Assembly: GCA_964635905.1 (NCBI GenBank)
Contig: CAZWPK010000004.1
Coordinates: 91,012 to 145,841, forward strand
DNA: 54,830 nucleotides
Source: an uncultured Pseudomonadales bacterium
Lineage (GTDB): Bacteria > Patescibacteriota > Microgenomatia > UBA1400 > UBA12028
Reading direction: 5' to 3'
Both the position numbers and the translations under genes were made by a program. The notes beneath the pieces were generated by a model. It was not told the origin of the DNA. It saw only the letters and a program-made list of their open reading frames with translations, and made no database searches. Position 1 is the stretch's first letter. Each line of letters starts with the position of its first letter. Positions 3,618 to 54,561 of the stretch are shown here, in pieces.

Positions 3618-4037
3618 ATGTTTGATGCCAAACGTGTGGAGCATCGTATTTTGTCTGGCCTAAAAAACCTTTCTTTACCCCGAGAAACGAATTGTTTGGG
3701 GTATGTATGGTGGTGTCTGGATTGGGCAGATCCAGAACAATACATCTCACCCGACACTGCTGGTCAAGAACTGTTTAGTTTTGATTCTCAACCTTTTCAC
3801 CCTAATCAAAAGTATTCCTGGGAACAGGGATTTCTGGGTCTAGTAGTTGCAAAGTTGCCTAGAGAAAAAGTGGTGCATGCAGCTCTGCTGCATCCAAATA
3901 AACCAAATATTTTCGTAGAACGGAAAGGATACAACTCAAGAGTTCGCGAAGTAGCAATCGCCCAAATCAGAAACAGCTATGAAAAGAATAGGGAAGATGT
4001 GTACTCCTATTTACTGTTGAGACAGCCACGTGAATAA
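3618..4037 (+). CDS. hypothetical protein
   Basis: 139-aa ORF filling the gap after rpsI and followed by a terminator; no recognised motif. Confidence 0.6.
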   Translation: MFDAKRVEHRILSGLKNLSLPRETNCLGYVWWCLDWADPEQYISPDTAGQELFSFDSQPFHPNQKYSWEQGFLGLVVAKLPREKVVHAALLHPNKPNIFVERKGYNSRVREVAIAQIRNSYEKNREDVYSYLLLRQPRE

Positions 4038-46154: not shown

Positions 46155-46202
46155 GAAGGTATGATAGCATGGAGCATCGACAAACAGTTTTTCTTTTTTG
46201 CT

Positions 46203-47852
46203 ATGGAATGGCACATTCTTAACGAAACAATCCCTTCAAGTCTTCAAGAAATTCAAGAGATTTTGCTCTCTAATCGAAGCATCACGGATGCCACCACGTT
46301 TCTGCATCCTACAAAGCCCTCAGAGCTAACCTACGAAATGGTTGGACTTGATACCCAACAACTAACCATCCTGATTTCTCGATTGGAAATTGCTCACAAG
46401 AATAAAGAAACGATTGCTATCTATGGTGACTACGACTGTGATGGAGTCTGTGCCACGGCGATTCTTTGGGAGACGCTGCATAAACTAGGGTTTAAGGTCG
46501 TTCCCTTTATCCCTCATCGAGAACGCCATGGATATGGATTATCCAAAAAAGGCCTCGATGAGTTGTTTGAATCCTGTACGCCAGCAATTTTGATCTCCGT
46601 TGATAACGGAATTGTGGCCCACCGCCAATGGGAGTATCTGAAAGAAAAGGGCGTCTACACCGTTTTAACCGATCATCATCAACCCGATGATCAGTTTCCT
46701 ACTGTTGATGTCAGACTTCATACCACGCAATTATGTGGAGCGACTGTCGCCTGGATGGTCGCAGTCCAACTAGAAAAGCACTTTGCACAGAGCAGCGATT
46801 TTACCCATCAATTGATTGATTTGTGTGCCATTGCTACGATTGCAGATCAAGTTCCACTGCTTGAAGCCAATCGCTCGTTTGCAAAGTATGGTTTGGAACA
46901 ATTAAATAAAACAACCCGAGTGGGATTACTAAAGCTCATCGAATCTGCAGGCTTATCCTTAGGCAAATTAGATGTCTATTCTGTCAATTTTGCAATCGCC
47001 CCCAGAATCAATGCCATGGGGAGATTAGAACACGCGCTTGATGCACTTCGAGCACTCTGTACGCGAAAACCCGACAGAGTGGTTGAACTCATTGGAAGGC
47101 TCTCTGAAGTGAATCAAACGCGTCAAGATTTGACCCAGCAGTTAATTGACAAAGCACTTCTACGAGCCGATGAGTGGAAGGATGAACATATTATTATTGT
47201 CGAGGATGTTGATTTCCACGAAGGGGTAATTGGATTGATAGCAGGCAAGCTTACCGAGAAATATCATAAACCGAGTATCTGCATCAGCCTCGGAGAAATA
47301 ACAAGTAAAGCATCCTGTCGCAGTATTCCGGGAGTAAATATTACGGATCTTCTCCGAGAAATTTCAGATGATTTATTGGAAGTAGGTGGGCATCCCATGG
47401 CAGCGGGATTTAAAGTAGAAACGGCCAAGATTGAACAGGTGAAAGTACGATTAAAAGCACTTACAAAAATCCAAATCAGCGAACTGCACTTAAAACCTAG
47501 TATCGATATTGATTGTATTCTTCCTCCACCGCTTCAGTCATTGGAAACGGCAGAGCAATTGTTGACACTGGCTCCCTATGGAGCTGGTAATCGGGAACCG
47601 GTATTTCTGTTACAAGACATGCAGGTGCTTGCCTCTTCAGTCATAGGGAAAGAAGGAAAACACCTCAAAGTCAGTTTTCTTCCCAAAGAGGGGAAACCGA
47701 ACCAAGTAGTCTCGGCAATTGGATTTGGAATGGGACCCAAGATTGAAGAATATAGTCCCCAATCCTGGGTCTCACTGGTAGGCCACTTACAAATTAATCA
47801 GTGGAATAATAAGAAGACACTCCAGTTTGTGATTCGGAATGCTAGTTTCTAG
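46203..47852 (+). CDS. recJ: ssDNA-specific exonuclease RecJ
   Basis: YGDYDCDG, RERHGYG, SVDNG, TDHH, TIADQVPL, PRINAMGR, GGHPMAAG. Confidence 0.97.
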   Translation: MEWHILNETIPSSLQEIQEILLSNRSITDATTFLHPTKPSELTYEMVGLDTQQLTILISRLEIAHKNKETIAIYGDYDCDGVCATAILWETLHKLGFKVVPFIPHRERHGYGLSKKGLDELFESCTPAILISVDNGIVAHRQWEYLKEKGVYTVLTDHHQPDDQFPTVDVRLHTTQLCGATVAWMVAVQLEKHFAQSSDFTHQLIDLCAIATIADQVPLLEANRSFAKYGLEQLNKTTRVGLLKLIESAGLSLGKLDVYSVNFAIAPRINAMGRLEHALDALRALCTRKPDRVVELIGRLSEVNQTRQDLTQQLIDKALLRADEWKDEHIIIVEDVDFHEGVIGLIAGKLTEKYHKPSICISLGEITSKASCRSIPGVNITDLLREISDDLLEVGGHPMAAGFKVETAKIEQVKVRLKALTKIQISELHLKPSIDIDCILPPPLQSLETAEQLLTLAPYGAGNREPVFLLQDMQVLASSVIGKEGKHLKVSFLPKEGKPNQVVSAIGFGMGPKIEEYSPQSWVSLVGHLQINQWNNKKTLQFVIRNASF

Positions 47853-48114
47853 CGCCCCGATAATCTATCAGCTTCTCAAGAACCTCATTTTTACCGAGTC
47901 TGCTTGGTTTATTTGCTTCAACAATAAGGTAGGCCATGAATGAGTTCGCATAAATTCCAAGTGCTTTAAGAAATTCCGCATGTTCTTCTACAGAGGTGAC
48001 TTCGCCAATCCAGAGTTTACGCGTAGTTATAGCGTTTAATCGGCCGTTAGTTACTGCATTTGCAGCATCTAATTTCTTTTTATAGTGTTCTGAATTTCTT
48101 TGCTCCTGTGTCAT
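47842..48114 (-). CDS. hypothetical protein (90 aa), second gene behind the attenuator
   Basis: GGAG ribosome-binding site before ATG 48114. Confidence 0.55.
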   Translation of the reverse strand: MTQEQRNSEHYKKKLDAANAVTNGRLNAITTRKLWIGEVTSVEEHAEFLKALGIYANSFMAYLIVEANKPSRLGKNEVLEKLIDYRGARN

Positions 48115-48122
48115 AGAAACTC

Positions 48123-48302
48123 CTATTGGCGATTGCCTTTTTGCACATACCAAATGCTTTCAGAATTATCTTCTGTTTCCATTCGGAATAAAGTATTTCC
48201 GTCAATCTGTAGAACTTTTGGCATTTCACCCGTTATCGCACTCTCTCTAGCAGCTTGAATCCAAGCTTCATTTTGTTTTTTATATGGAGTTAAATTTTCC
48301 AT
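48123..48302 (-). CDS. hypothetical protein (59 aa), first gene behind the attenuator
   Basis: AGAAAGGA ribosome-binding site before ATG 48302. Confidence 0.55.
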   Translation of the reverse strand: MENLTPYKKQNEAWIQAARESAITGEMPKVLQIDGNTLFRMETEDNSESIWYVQKGNRQ

Positions 48303-48320
48303 ATTTTCCTTTCTCACAAC

Positions 48321-48347
48321 AAAAAACCCCCGGTTTTTAAGCGGGGG
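48321..48347 (-). terminator. intrinsic terminator/attenuator upstream of the 59-aa gene
   Basis: Minus strand CCCCCG-CTTAAAAAC-CGGGGG-TTTTTT. Confidence 0.85.
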
Positions 48348-48375
48348 TGTTGTGTTTTTAATTAATGTTACTTCA

Positions 48376-48447
48376 TTACTCCACACAAACCCCCAGTCCG
48401 CGAAGGACAGTGAGAGTGTTAATGGTAATGACGTGTTGGTTCTGCAT
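48376..48447 (-). CDS. putative 23-aa attenuator leader peptide MQNQHVITINTLTVLRGLGVCVE
   Basis: ATG 12 nt after a consensus -10; stop about 28 nt before the terminator; covers a predicted antiterminator strand. Confidence 0.55.
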   Translation of the reverse strand: MQNQHVITINTLTVLRGLGVCVE

Positions 48448-48459
48448 AGAACAAGAGGA

Positions 48460-48510
48460 ATTATAGGAAACCAGAGTCCCATTGTCAATCAGGCGATCTT
48501 TGTTTACAAT
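48460..48510. promoter_or_regulatory. divergent sigma70-type promoters with overlapping -35 boxes
   Basis: Minus TTGACA(48488-48483)-17-TATAAT(48465-48460); plus TTGTCA(48482-48487)-17-TACAAT(48505-48510). Confidence 0.8.
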
Positions 48511-48524
48511 AAAGATACGTTTTT

Positions 48525-48668
48525 TTGCTACGGTAGGAGCTAAGGTGACGCTTAGTGAGTAGTAACGGGTAAGCCCGAAATCGCTGGAACAAGAAACACA
48601 AAGGTGGCACCTCTTTTGCAGAACCTGCAAAGACCTTGGATTCTCAGGGTAGAGAGGTGTCTTTTTTT
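48525..48668 (+). ncRNA. T-box riboswitch (Asp specifier) with transcriptional terminator, upstream of aspS
   Basis: Antiterminator AAGG-[TGGCACC]-TCTTTTGCA/TGCAAAGA-CCTT; terminator GGCACCTCTTT/AGAGAGGTGTC+T7; GAC at 48547-48549 in the loop of CTAAG/CTTAG. Confidence 0.88.
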
Positions 48669-48693
48669 ATACGTTGTGGGGTAAGGAGAAACT

Positions 48694-53124: not shown

Positions 53125-54561
53125 ATGACTGTTCGCACTCGAATTGCTCCCTCACCGACTGGTATCGCCCATATTGGCACTGCCTATATGGCGCTGTTTA
53201 ACTATGCCTTTGCTAAAAAACATGGGGGAGAGTTCATCATTCGGATCGAAGATACCGATCGAGCCCGTTTTGTGGATGGGGCTGAGGAAGTGATCTTTCA
53301 ATCCTTACAGTGGCTAGATATCCCGTATACCGAGGCTCCAACCATAGGTGGACCGTATGCACCATATCGACAGTCCGAGCGACTTCCCAAGTATAAAGCC
53401 GCTGCAGAAGAGCTGATAGAGAAGGGGCATGCCTATTATTGTTTTTGTTCTTCCGAAGAACTAGATCTCATGCGAAAAGAGCAGGTAGCACGGAAAGAAA
53501 TTCCCCGCTATGACCGACGGTGCACGAAATTATCTCCAGAGGAGATCCAAACACGTTTGGATCGGGGAGATAAGCACGTGATTCGGATGCGAATGCCAGA
53601 TCAAGAAGTGATTGCCTGGCAAGATCTTGTTCGAGGTACTGTCGAAATCAATACGAAGGAGTTGGACGATCAGGTTCTCATGAAGTCGGATGGATTTCCA
53701 ACCTATCATCTGGCGGTAGTCGTGGATGACAATGCCATGAAAATTAGTCACGTGATTCGTGGGGAAGAATGGATCAGTAGTACCCCAAAACATATTCTGC
53801 TCTATCGCTATTTTGGCTGGACCGCTCCGGAGTTTGCGCACATGCCATTGCTTCGAAACCCTGACAAAACCAAGATGAGTAAACGCAAAAATGATGTCTC
53901 GATTCCCTCGTATAAGGAAAAGGGATACCTTCCGTCAGCGCTTCGAAACTATCTATGTCTATTAGGCTGGTCTCATCCGGAAGAAAAAGATGTGTTTGAT
54001 TTGCCGGAATTCATCGAGAAGTTTACGACAGAGCGAATGGTAAAAAGTGGTCCCATCTTTGATACCAAAAAACTCCAGTGGATGAATGGAAAGTATATTC
54101 GAGAAAAGTTATCACTAGAAGAACTACTGTCAGCACTGCAGCCATTCCTGCCAGCTGATTATCCTAGTGATCTGTTACCACAAGTCCTTCCATTAGTCCG
54201 TGATCGTTTGGTTGTTTTAACCGATATTGGGCCATTAACAGAGTTTTTCTACAAAGACATCGCTCCAGCTGTTACTGATCTGGTTGGGAAGAAAGTAACA
54301 AAATCTGATGTCAGCGAATTCCTGTTACGCTGTAAAGAGAACTTGGAAGAAGTTGAAGTGCAGGACTGGAAAGCAGAGCAAATGGAAACATTGCTTCGCG
54401 ACTATTGTGACTCCAAGGAATGGAATCGTGGCGCTTTCTTTATGGCGCTTCGTGTCGGCGTCTCTGGAAGAACTACAACTCCACCATTGTTTGACATGAT
54501 TGAGGTACTTGGCAAAGAAAAAACCATCACCCGACTTTCCCAAACAATGAAGCTGCTCTAA
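53125..54561 (+). CDS. gltX: glutamate--tRNA ligase
   Basis: RIAPSPTG.AHIG, RIEDTD, YHLAVVVDD, IRGEEW, KMSKR. Confidence 0.98.
   Translation: MTVRTRIAPSPTGIAHIGTAYMALFNYAFAKKHGGEFIIRIEDTDRARFVDGAEEVIFQSLQWLDIPYTEAPTIGGPYAPYRQSERLPKYKAAAEELIEKGHAYYCFCSSEELDLMRKEQVARKEIPRYDRRCTKLSPEEIQTRLDRGDKHVIRMRMPDQEVIAWQDLVRGTVEINTKELDDQVLMKSDGFPTYHLAVVVDDNAMKISHVIRGEEWISSTPKHILLYRYFGWTAPEFAHMPLLRNPDKTKMSKRKNDVSIPSYKEKGYLPSALRNYLCLLGWSHPEEKDVFDLPEFIEKFTTERMVKSGPIFDTKKLQWMNGKYIREKLSLEELLSALQPFLPADYPSDLLPQVLPLVRDRLVVLTDIGPLTEFFYKDIAPAVTDLVGKKVTKSDVSEFLLRCKENLEEVEVQDWKAEQMETLLRDYCDSKEWNRGAFFMALRVGVSGRTTTPPLFDMIEVLGKEKTITRLSQTMKLL

What the first reader, a model, noticed from the sequence alone, without database searches (positions are those of the whole stretch)
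47842..48465. Leader-peptide attenuator controlling two unknown small genes
Seen on the minus strand: consensus promoter, then a 23-codon ORF rich in Val/Ile/Thr/Leu (VITINTLTVL), then a GC-rich terminator, then a ribosome-binding site and 59-aa and 90-aa ORFs. The end of the leader ORF (GGGGGTTTGTG) can pair with the terminator 5' side (CACAACACCCCC) or fold into a long hairpin closed by TCATTAC/GTAATGA. Known: this is the geometry of thr/ilv-type ribosome-mediated attenuation. Inference: a starvation or ribosome-stalling sensor wired not to biosynthetic genes but to uncharacterised proteins, possibly dormancy or stress effectors.
Basis: partly seen in the sequence, partly recalled or inferred. 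Interest (0 to 1): 0.7.

Follow-up and report, generated by a model that had tools for sequence, protein, structure and literature searches.

The report
Leader-peptide transcription attenuator in CPR bacteria
A 23-codon upstream reading frame and three mutually exclusive RNA hairpins form a classic stop/go transcription switch in front of two fast-evolving orphan genes of a Woesebacteria (CPR) genome. Look-alike switches sit at the same place beside the aspartyl-tRNA synthetase gene in several other CPR lineages.

Summary
On the minus strand there is a perfect TTGACA-17-TATAAT promoter, a 23-codon uORF (48447-48376) and a long hairpin (r1:r2). A 12-bp antiterminator (r2:r3, -20 kcal/mol, p about 0.002) competes with an intrinsic terminator (48348-48321). 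Then come SD-led 59-aa and 90-aa ORFs with no promoter of their own.

The contig is a Candidatus Woesebacteria (CPR) genome. Across five congeneric lineages neutral sites differ by about 50%, yet the leader is about 96% conserved. All its changes fall in loops or bulges, or add base pairs.

Structurally equivalent leaders occur in six distant CPR lineages: four on the same strand close upstream of aspS, two (L038, L044) about 1 kb away. Each has a promoter, a 20-27-codon uORF that usually ends at r2, an r2:r3 complement that tracks the terminator core, and a terminator.

The cargo is orphan and hypervariable. The 90-aa protein is only 30-40% identical between alleles at an otherwise about 94% identical locus.

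Ribosome-mediated attenuation is the best-supported mechanism (about 0.55), but translation is not shown. Thr/Ile specificity is not supported. It is not a member of Rfam Thr_leader. I class it as a new variant of a known kind, with a new RNA family.

The parts
48460..48488 (-). Sigma-70 promoter TTGACA-17-TATAAT of the leader. Its -35 overlaps back-to-back the -35 (TTGTCA, 48482-48487) of the divergent aspS promoter.
   Evidence: Both hexamers are invariant in 5 lineages; changes occur only in the spacer.
48439..48452 (-). 5'-terminal hairpin GUUCU-AUGC-AGAAC with the uORF start codon in its loop. The predicted transcript start is about 48452-3.
   Evidence: The only change (C to A) lies in the loop. 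L044 has an equivalent hairpin, UUGUUU-AUGA-AGACAG.
48376..48447 (-). 23-codon uORF MQNQHVITINTLTVLRGLGVCVE with stop TAA. It has no Shine-Dalgarno sequence.
   Evidence: It is intact in 5 lineages. Equivalent 20-27-codon uORFs occur in L038, L056, L086, L044, L047 and L018.
48411..48434 (-). Region 1: the 5' arm of the anti-antiterminator hairpin, covering codons 6-13 (V I T I N T L T).
48396..48408 (-). Apical hairpin GUCC-UUCGC-GGAC.
   Evidence: U-A becomes U.G in L088. L086 has CCUCC-GAAC-GGAGG at the same place.
48370..48395 (-). Region 2: the 3' arm of the hairpin. Its first 12 nt (48394-48383, GGGGGUUUGUGU) form the 5' strand of the antiterminator. The uORF stop codon lies inside region 2.
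48343..48355 (-). Region 3, ACACAACACCCCC. It pairs either with region 2 (antiterminator) or with region 4 (terminator).
   Evidence: It is invariant in 5 lineages.
48321..48348 (-). Intrinsic terminator ACCCCCG-(9-nt loop)-CGGGGGU followed by U6.
   Evidence: Changes occur only in the loop.
48123..48302 (-). pA, a 59-aa orphan protein (SD AAAGGA at 48312-48307). The best AlphaFold model gives a beta-alpha-beta-beta-beta topology.
   Evidence: Public gene calls fuse it with the leader into a 119-aa artefact.
47842..48114 (-). pB, a 90-aa orphan protein predicted to be all-helical (SD AGGAG overlaps the pA stop). Its 3' end overlaps the recJ stop by 11 nt, convergently.

Best explanation
This is a leader-peptide (ribosome-mediated) transcription attenuator that gates the only route of transcription into a two-gene orphan cassette, pA-pB.

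Proposed mechanism:
1. RNA polymerase starts at the consensus promoter.
2. By default the nascent RNA folds r1:r2 (-20.5 kcal/mol). This leaves r3 free to form the terminator with r4 (-17 kcal/mol), so a transcript of about 130 nt ends at 48321.
3. A ribosome that translates the uORF through to its stop codon covers r2, and the result is again termination.
4. A ribosome that stalls or slows within codons about 5-13 (r1) frees r2. r2 then pairs with r3 (-20.6 kcal/mol, stronger than the terminator). The terminator cannot form, and polymerase reads into pA-pB.

Shown here:
- the promoter, the terminator and the three mutually exclusive helices with their energies;
- their conservation, and their independent recurrence with co-varying G/C cores in distant lineages;
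- the conserved presence and placement of the uORF;
- the absence of any other promoter for pA-pB.

Inferred:
- that the uORF is translated;
- that stalling is the trigger;
- that the signal is general translation stress or aminoacyl-tRNA supply rather than Thr or Ile specifically;
- that the cargo is a conflict- or stress-type module (fast-evolving, allelic).
For: 1. Anatomy.

2. Ribosome-mask folds. With the P-site at codons 7, 8, 10 or 13 the 12-bp antiterminator replaces the terminator. With the ribosome at the stop codon, or with no ribosome, the terminator forms. The same holds in 4 of 5 congeneric lineages and in L038, L056, L086 and L047.

3. Significance of r2:r3. p = 0.0015-0.003 in the window, and 0.001, <0.001, <0.001 and 0.022 in four divergent leaders. 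The cores co-vary:
- window: GGGGG / CCCCC / GGGGG
- L038: GCGGG / CCCGC / GCGGG
- L056: GCGGUG / CCCCGC / GCGGGG
- L086: GGGGGG / CCUCCC / GGGAGG

4. Selection on the RNA. Four-fold sites of aspS and recJ differ by about 50% between the five lineages, but the leader shows 96% column identity. All changes are in loops, bulges or linkers, or they create pairs: A81U gives G.U, C35A adds an A-U, and U58A re-pairs with U44.

5. The uORF.
- It starts at the first AUG of each leader and stays open for 20-27 codons in 5 of 5 divergent leaders, while the other frames carry stops. The product of the shuffle probabilities is 0.004.
- The conserved AUU-AC(C/U) motif (AUU-AAC in L044) is in the same frame in all five.
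- The stop lies 0-6 nt after r2 in 4 of 5.

6. Descriptor scan (terminator, plus r2 complement, plus a uORF ending at r2) over 735 kb on both strands. It gave 11-12 hits against 0.6 expected. Ten of the hits lie on the strand opposite aspS, upstream of it.

7. There are only 18 nt between the U-tract and the pA SD, and no promoter-like site on that strand down to 47842.
Against: - There is no Shine-Dalgarno sequence before the uORF, although pA, pB and aspS all have strong ones. The AUG sits in a tetraloop about 5 nt from the predicted 5' end.
- The organism does use leaderless mRNAs with a -10 box 6-7 nt before the ATG. Here the spacing is 12 nt, so the uORF is neither canonical nor strictly leaderless.
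- Within the close clade the uORF shows 6 nonsynonymous changes and 1 synonymous change. The peptide itself is therefore not under purifying selection, and its composition can be explained by RNA pairing constraints.
- There is no run of a single amino acid.
- No RNA-seq run containing this organism could be found, so neither the short transcript nor read-through has been observed.
- The distant leaders were found with a model or descriptor built from this one, and they scored weakly (19-21 bits).
Confidence: 0.55

Rival explanations
1. The same three-helix attenuator, but with a trigger other than the ribosome. A protein (possibly pA or pB acting on its own leader), an RNA or a small molecule would bind r1 or the apical hairpin and free r2. 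The 'uORF' would be an untranslated by-product of homology.
For: - There is no SD, and the AUG is held in a hairpin loop.
- Substitutions follow RNA structure rather than codon position.
- CAUUAC is conserved in sequence while its pairing partner changes, which could mark a binding site.
Against: - The frame stays open and the stop stays at r2 in divergent leaders.
- The hairpin is simple, with no aptamer-like complexity, and matches no Rfam family.
- The cargo proteins differ completely between lineages while the leader design is kept. This argues against a cargo-encoded regulator.
Confidence: 0.22
2. A stand-alone small RNA of about 130 nt is the real product. pA and pB would be expressed only by incidental terminator leakage, and the r2:r3 complement would have no regulatory role.
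For: - The consensus promoter and strong terminator bracket a highly conserved, stably folded RNA.
- The leader is far more conserved than its cargo.
Against: - The r2:r3 complement is significant, and it recurs with matching changes in unrelated-sequence leaders.
- Every example is followed immediately by a gene that has no promoter of its own.
- No paralogue or other copy was found in the window or in viral or metagenome scans.
Confidence: 0.12
3. The short ORF encodes a functional micropeptide (for example a type I-toxin-like membrane peptide), or the locus is a type III toxin-antitoxin system with an RNA antitoxin followed by a terminator and a toxin.
For: - The L047 peptide MDLNLLVLSLLSLGLLLLGKRQWEVMA looks membrane-like.
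- The promoter-RNA-terminator-protein order resembles toxIN (own knowledge).
Against: - The window peptide is polar and short, and it varies at 6 positions among close relatives.
- There are no tandem repeats in the leader.
- There are no PADLOC, Pfam or NCBIfam hits for pA or pB.
- The ohsC match covers only the terminator, at 24 bits against a threshold of 50.
Confidence: 0.05

Closest known systems
Classical leader-peptide attenuators of amino-acid operons (E. coli thrL, ilvL, leuL, trpL, hisL; Rfam RF00506, RF00512-514)
   Same: - A promoter-proximal short ORF.
- 1:2, 2:3 and 3:4 alternative helices, with r1 inside the ORF and the stop codon at r2.
- An intrinsic terminator directly before the first structural gene.
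- 2:3 more stable than 3:4.
   Different: - No tandem run of regulatory codons.
- No SD.
- Non-biosynthetic, orphan cargo.
- The host is a CPR bacterium. That such organisms lack most amino-acid biosynthesis is general knowledge, not tested here.
- Sequence and covariance-model similarity is below threshold (23 bits against 55).
toiL uORF controlling the TopAI-YjhQ toxin-antitoxin operon of E. coli (Baniulyte & Wade 2025, PMC12121999), and antibiotic-responsive uORF attenuators found by Term-seq in Firmicutes (own knowledge: Dar et al. 2016)
   Same: - A sensory uORF without an amino-acid run.
- It reports ribosome stalling in general.
- It is wired to a non-biosynthetic (toxin-antitoxin or resistance) module.
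   Different: - toiL acts through RBS occlusion and Rho-dependent termination. This locus has an intrinsic terminator and an explicit antiterminator.
- The cargo here has no recognisable toxin-antitoxin or resistance domain.
T-box riboswitch (the neighbour on the other strand, upstream of aspS)
   Same: - Competition between terminator and antiterminator.
- It senses the translation-supply state.
- It shares a back-to-back -35 with the leader promoter.
   Different: - The leader has no Stem I or specifier.
- It has no 7-nt UGGN bulge flanked by A1 and A2 helices.
- It has an extra anti-antiterminator arm, r1, carrying an ORF.
Type III toxin-antitoxin loci (toxIN)
   Same: The order promoter, small RNA, intrinsic terminator, protein gene, with the terminator setting the RNA:protein ratio.
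   Different: - No tandem repeat array.
- No ToxN-like protein.
- An antiterminator is present.

Membership tests
Rfam Thr_leader (RF00506) / thr-type attenuator | Covariance-model score at or above the gathering threshold (55 bits). | tested here: not met
   23.2 bits, E = 0.09 in a 1.1-kb search. Nothing reached gathering thresholds in the whole window.
Rfam Thr_leader (RF00506) / thr-type attenuator | A leader peptide dominated by tandem Thr/Ile regulatory codons, conserved among relatives. | tested here: not met
   3 Thr and 2 Ile in 23 codons. Codon 13 is Thr, Asn or Trp and codon 10 is Asn or Lys in congeners.
Rfam Thr_leader (RF00506) / thr-type attenuator | It controls the cognate amino-acid biosynthesis operon. 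| tested here: not met
   The downstream genes are 59-aa and 90-aa orphans with no Pfam, NCBIfam, PHROG or PADLOC hit.
Ribosome-mediated transcription attenuator (mechanistic class) | An intrinsic terminator lies between the promoter and the first structural gene, with no other promoter. | tested here: met
   There are 18 nt from the U-tract to the pA SD.
Ribosome-mediated transcription attenuator (mechanistic class) | An antiterminator that is mutually exclusive with the terminator and at least as stable. | tested here: met
   2:3 is -20.6 kcal/mol and 3:4 is -17.1 kcal/mol. p is about 0.002. It recurs with matching core changes in L038, L056, L086 and L047.
Ribosome-mediated transcription attenuator (mechanistic class) | An anti-antiterminator (1:2) whose 5' arm lies inside a short ORF, with the stop codon placing a terminating ribosome on r2. 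| tested here: met
   r1 covers codons 6-13. The stop is 3 nt after the r2 antiterminator strand, and 0-6 nt after it in 4 of 5 divergent leaders.
Ribosome-mediated transcription attenuator (mechanistic class) | The short ORF is translated. | not testable with these tools
   The evidence is indirect only: the frame is open in 5 of 5 leaders (p about 0.004) and the motif is in the same frame. Against: no SD. No RNA or Ribo-seq run was found.
Ribosome-mediated transcription attenuator (mechanistic class) | Read-through rises when ribosomes stall in the ORF. | not testable with these tools
   Only constraint folding that mimics a ribosome footprint is available.
T-box riboswitch (RF00230), tested on the leader itself | Stem I with a specifier, and an antiterminator with a 7-nt UGGN-containing bulge. 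| tested here: not met
   No RF00230 hit up to E = 10. The internal loop of the 2:3 helix is 4 nt on one side and 7 nt on the other, and there is no Stem I.
Type III toxin-antitoxin | A tandem direct-repeat RNA antitoxin upstream of the terminator. | tested here: not met
   Tandem Repeats Finder found nothing at a minimum score of 30.
Type II toxin-antitoxin / known defence system (for pA-pB) | A recognisable toxin or antitoxin domain, or a defence-system model. | tested here: not met
   - Pfam, NCBIfam, PADLOC and PHROGs: no hits.
- PDB profile search: best E = 0.06.
- Foldseek on the pA model: best E = 0.8.

The most novel reading that the evidence does not exclude
A previously undescribed, widespread family of translation-stress switches in Microgenomates-type CPR bacteria. 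It would be a uORF attenuator that shares a back-to-back promoter with the tRNA-sensing aspS leader. It would gate a 'cargo slot' between recJ and aspS that is filled with rapidly diversifying, allelic orphan proteins, for example toxin/immunity or host-interaction modules of these episymbionts. Cargo expression would then be coupled to the supply of charged tRNA obtained from the host.
Probability: 0.25. Interest if true: 0.8.

Novelty: new variant of a known kind. Interest (0 to 1): 0.6.

Why it matters
CPR/Patescibacteria are uncultured, reduced-genome organisms whose gene regulation is almost unknown. The held literature library returned no paper on transcription attenuation or T-box elements in them.

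If the mechanism holds:
- It shows that coupled transcription-translation sensing operates in this radiation.
- It gives a sequence and structure descriptor for finding further regulated genes.
- It flags a locus where orphan proteins diverge to 30-40% identity among otherwise about 94% identical genomes. That is the signature of an arms-race or conflict module.

It also corrects a recurrent annotation error. Public gene calls merge the leader, the terminator and pA into a single 119-aa ORF.

Tried and rejected
- Rfam at gathering and at E <= 10 gave only sub-threshold leader or terminator look-alikes.
- Pfam, PHROGs, NCBIfam and PADLOC gave nothing for pA or pB.
- tblastn of pB against phage records gave nothing.
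- The AlphaFold model of pB is of low confidence (pLDDT 53) and was not used.
- For pA, one of five models reached pLDDT 83 and the others about 57. Foldseek against the PDB found nothing below E = 0.8.
- An exact-pattern scan for the r2...r3 pair found only one chance hit in metagenome contigs (high-GC contig L087) and none in viral contigs.
- No RNA sequencing run could be found. Laying DNA contigs from other runs added no new leader alleles.
- The 121-aa ORF (48123-48488) that runs through the leader is not conserved: L004 aa and L006 aa. It was rejected as an artefact.
- The idea that the conserved 200 nt upstream of the leader promoter belongs to the cassette was rejected. It is the aspS 5' leader on the other strand.
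- Cargo proteins from distant lineages show no mutual similarity.
- MAFFT could not align the distant leaders structurally, so no family-wide covariation statistic was computed. The analysis was done leader by leader instead.
Full report
**1. What is there**

Read on the minus strand, the region contains the following.
- A perfect sigma-70 promoter: TTGACA 48488-48483, a 17-nt spacer, and TATAAT 48465-48460. It is the only 12/12 match in the 4.5 kb scanned.
- A 14-nt hairpin, GUUCU-AUGC-AGAAC (48452-48439), at the predicted 5' end.
- A 23-codon ORF running from the AUG in that hairpin's loop (48447) to TAA (48378-48376).
- A long imperfect hairpin whose 5' arm (r1, 48434-48411) is codons 6-13 and whose 3' arm (r2, 48395-48370) contains the stop codon.
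- A 15-nt A-rich linker.
- An intrinsic terminator, ACCCCCG-9-CGGGGGU-U6 (48348-48321).

Eighteen nucleotides after the U-tract come an SD and the 59-aa ORF pA (48302-48123). The SD AGGAG and the 90-aa ORF pB (48114-47842) follow. No promoter-like site exists on that strand after the terminator, so pA-pB can be transcribed only through it.

The minimum-free-energy fold is r1:r2 plus the terminator (-42.6 kcal/mol, z = -2.4).

**2. The switch**

GGGGGUUUGUGU in r2 is complementary to ACACAAC-ACCCCC (r3, 48355-48343) over 12 bp with one bulge.

| Helix | Energy (kcal/mol) |
|---|---|
| 1:2 | -20.5 |
| 2:3 | -20.6 |
| 3:4 | -17.1 |

The r2:r3 duplex energy is -20.0 kcal/mol. It is reached by only 0.15-0.3% of dinucleotide shuffles of the upstream sequence.

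I masked a 28-nt ribosome footprint and refolded.
- With the P-site at codons 7, 8, 10 or 13, the antiterminator replaces the terminator.
- With the ribosome at the stop codon, or with no ribosome, the terminator forms.

This is the textbook logic of leader-peptide attenuation.

**3. Whose genome, and what surrounds it**

The exact pB sequence occurs on Logan contigs from wastewater. An 80% relative is annotated in a Candidatus Woesebacteria MAG.

The flanking genes are cca, recJ (+ strand, ending 47852) and aspS (+ strand, starting 48694). The cca-recJ-aspS order is ancestral in this group of CPR bacteria. In some lineages recJ abuts aspS with a gap of only 40-80 nt, and in others unrelated minus-strand genes fill the gap.

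The roughly 200 conserved nucleotides between the leader promoter and aspS are the aspS 5' leader on the other strand (see section 8).

**4. Close relatives: selection acts on the RNA**

Five congeneric lineages were compared: the window, L004, L006, L088 and L089. Their aspS proteins are 93-97% identical. Four-fold degenerate sites of aspS and recJ differ by about 50% in the pairs measured. Despite this, the 138-nt leader has 96% mean column identity.

Every variable position is a loop, bulge or linker, or is pair-neutral or pair-creating:
- A81U turns a G/A mismatch into G.U.
- C35A adds an A-U pair.
- In L088, U58A re-pairs with U44.
- In L089, the triple change ACU to UGG makes G44.U58.

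The regions r2, r3 and r4 are invariant.

In the uORF there are six amino-acid changes (Q2K, N10K, T13N, T13W, L18Q, E23A) and one synonymous change. The RNA is therefore constrained, but the peptide sequence is not.

**5. Distant relatives: the design recurs**

A covariance model of the leader gave weak hits (19-21 bits) on the strand opposite aspS, upstream of it, in four loci:
- L086 (Gottesmanbacteria)
- L056 (Roizmanbacteria)
- L038
- L044

Read by eye and by folding, each hit has a promoter, a single early AUG opening a 20-27-codon ORF, and a long hairpin over that ORF. Each also has an r2:r3 complement and a terminator, followed at once by a gene.

Three results support the design.
- The r2:r3 complement is individually significant: p = 0.001, <0.001, <0.001 and 0.022.
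- Its G/C core changes together with the terminator core:
  - window: GGGGG / CCCCC / GGGGG
  - L038: GCGGG / CCCGC / GCGGG
  - L056: GCGGUG / CCCCGC / GCGGGG
  - L086: GGGGGG / CCUCCC / GGGAGG
- The uORF stop lies 0-6 nt after r2 in four of five leaders.

The five reading frames stay open although the other two frames contain stops. The product of the shuffle probabilities is 0.004. The conserved AUU-AC(C/U) motif (AUU-AAC in L044) is read in the same frame in all five.

I then ran a sequence-independent descriptor over 735 kb on both strands. It required a terminator, an r2 complement of -16 kcal/mol or stronger, and an ATG ORF of 15-35 codons ending at r2. It returned 12 hits, against 0.6 expected from shuffled upstream sequence for 11 hits under the slightly stricter control. 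Ten of the 12 lie on the strand opposite aspS, upstream of it. Two were new:
- L047 (Curtissbacteria), uORF MDLNLLVLSLLSLGLLLLGKRQWEVMA. Its masked folds switch cleanly.
- L018.

This recurrence is the main reason to prefer a translated uORF.

**6. What argues against the ribosome model**

- There is no Shine-Dalgarno sequence before the uORF. The AUG is in a hairpin loop about 5 nt from the predicted 5' end.
- About 60% of long ORFs in the window have an SD. Several have a -10 box 6-7 nt before the ATG, which indicates leaderless mRNAs. SD-independent initiation therefore exists in this organism, but the 12-nt spacing here fits neither mode.
- The peptide's Ile/Thr/Leu/Asn first half and Gly/Val/Cys/Arg second half follow from a pyrimidine-rich r1 pairing with a G/U-rich r2.
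- Thr or Ile specificity is therefore unsupported. The Rfam Thr_leader match (23 bits against 55) is not membership.
- No transcript data exist.

**7. The cargo**

pA and pB have SDs and are intact in all five lineages. pB carries an in-frame 12-nt indel in L004.

They evolve very fast. Substitutions by codon position are [4,7,9] for pA and [12,12,21] for pB, against [31,5,182] for aspS.

An exhaustive HMMER search found only two further full-length pB homologues. Both sit at the same locus in congeners. pB therefore falls into three allelic classes that are 30-40% identical. In L089, pA is replaced by a 69-aa protein with no clear similarity.

Conservation drops from about 90% to about 40% exactly at the pA start codon in L089, or at the pB start in L088. 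It recovers at the recJ stop.

No family, defence model, phage record, solved structure or fold matches. Cargo proteins in the distant lineages are unrelated orphans.

A conserved regulatory arm in front of a diversifying slot suggests a conflict-type module such as toxin/immunity. This is inference only.

**8. Comparison with known systems, and verdict**

Mechanistically this is the classical leader-peptide attenuator design. In its wiring it is closest to general stalling sensors, such as toiL controlling the TopAI-YjhQ toxin-antitoxin operon in E. coli (PMC12121999).
- It is not a member of any Rfam leader family.
- It is not a T-box.
- It is not a type III toxin-antitoxin locus; there are no repeats.

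I rate it a new variant of a known kind: a new RNA family, a new phylogenetic setting and unusual cargo. Confidence is about 0.55 that ribosome stalling is the trigger and about 0.8 that it is a genuine terminator/antiterminator switch.

The neighbouring aspS leader (48515-48693, + strand) has a T-box-type antiterminator:
- A1 helix AAGG/CCUU;
- 7-nt bulge UGGCACC;
- A2 hairpin;
- terminator CACCUCU/AGAGGUG followed by U7.

It shares the conserved blocks GGGUARGCCC, GCNGGAA and AGGUGGCACC with L008, L010, L012 and L038. RF00230 does not detect it.

Noticed in passing
window 48515-48693 (+); also L008 about 3842-3975, L010 about 3835-3975, L012 about 3700-3872, L038 about 1690-1832: The aspS 5' leader looks like a divergent T-box riboswitch that Rfam RF00230 does not detect. 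It has the conserved blocks GGGUARGCCC, GCNGGAA and AGGUGGCACC, with UGGC matching a G73-CCA tRNA end. Its antiterminator consists of an A1 helix, a 7-nt bulge and an A2 helix, followed by a terminator. The putative specifier hairpin loop reads GGU-GAC-G (Asp) in the window clade. In four other lineages it reads GGGU-NNN-AAC (Asn codon), which would fit a non-discriminating AspRS.
   Followed up: partly
window 48478-48490: The leader promoter and the aspS promoter are back-to-back and share their -35 hexamers: TTGACAA on one strand is TTGTCAA on the other. The same arrangement is seen in L086 (Gottesmanbacteria).
   Followed up: partly
window 47842-48302, compared with L004, L006, L088 and L089: This is a hypervariable cargo slot. 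pB alleles are 30-40% identical and pA is replaced in L089, while the flanking aspS is 93-97% identical. The conservation boundaries are sharp, at the start codons and at the recJ stop. Synonymous divergence inside the cassette is lower than in the flanks (5-29% against about 50%), which hints at recombination between lineages.
   Followed up: partly
window, e.g. + strand ATG at 53125 and 51083; - strand ORFs listed: Several long ORFs have a TAnnnT -10 box ending 6-7 nt before the ATG and have no SD. This suggests frequent leaderless mRNAs in this CPR genome. About 60% of long ORFs have an SD.
   Followed up: no
window 48123-48488 (-); L001 4633-4992, L088 3633-3992: Public gene calls annotate a 119-aa ORF that begins near the promoter and runs through the leader and terminator into pA. 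This start is not conserved (87 aa in L004, 59 aa in L006), so it is probably an annotation artefact.
   Followed up: yes
window 47842-47852 and 46161-46214: pB and recJ overlap convergently by 11 nt (14-29 nt in L088 and L089). The long GTG-start ORF of the CCA-adding enzyme overlaps the recJ start by 54 nt, so its start is probably over-extended; public gene calls give 478 aa rather than 498.
   Followed up: no
L047 3727-3854 (-): The equivalent leader in Curtissbacteria encodes a strongly Leu-rich uORF (11 Leu in 27 codons), reminiscent of leu-operon leaders. It sits in front of an 87-aa orphan gene with a strong SD.
   Followed up: partly
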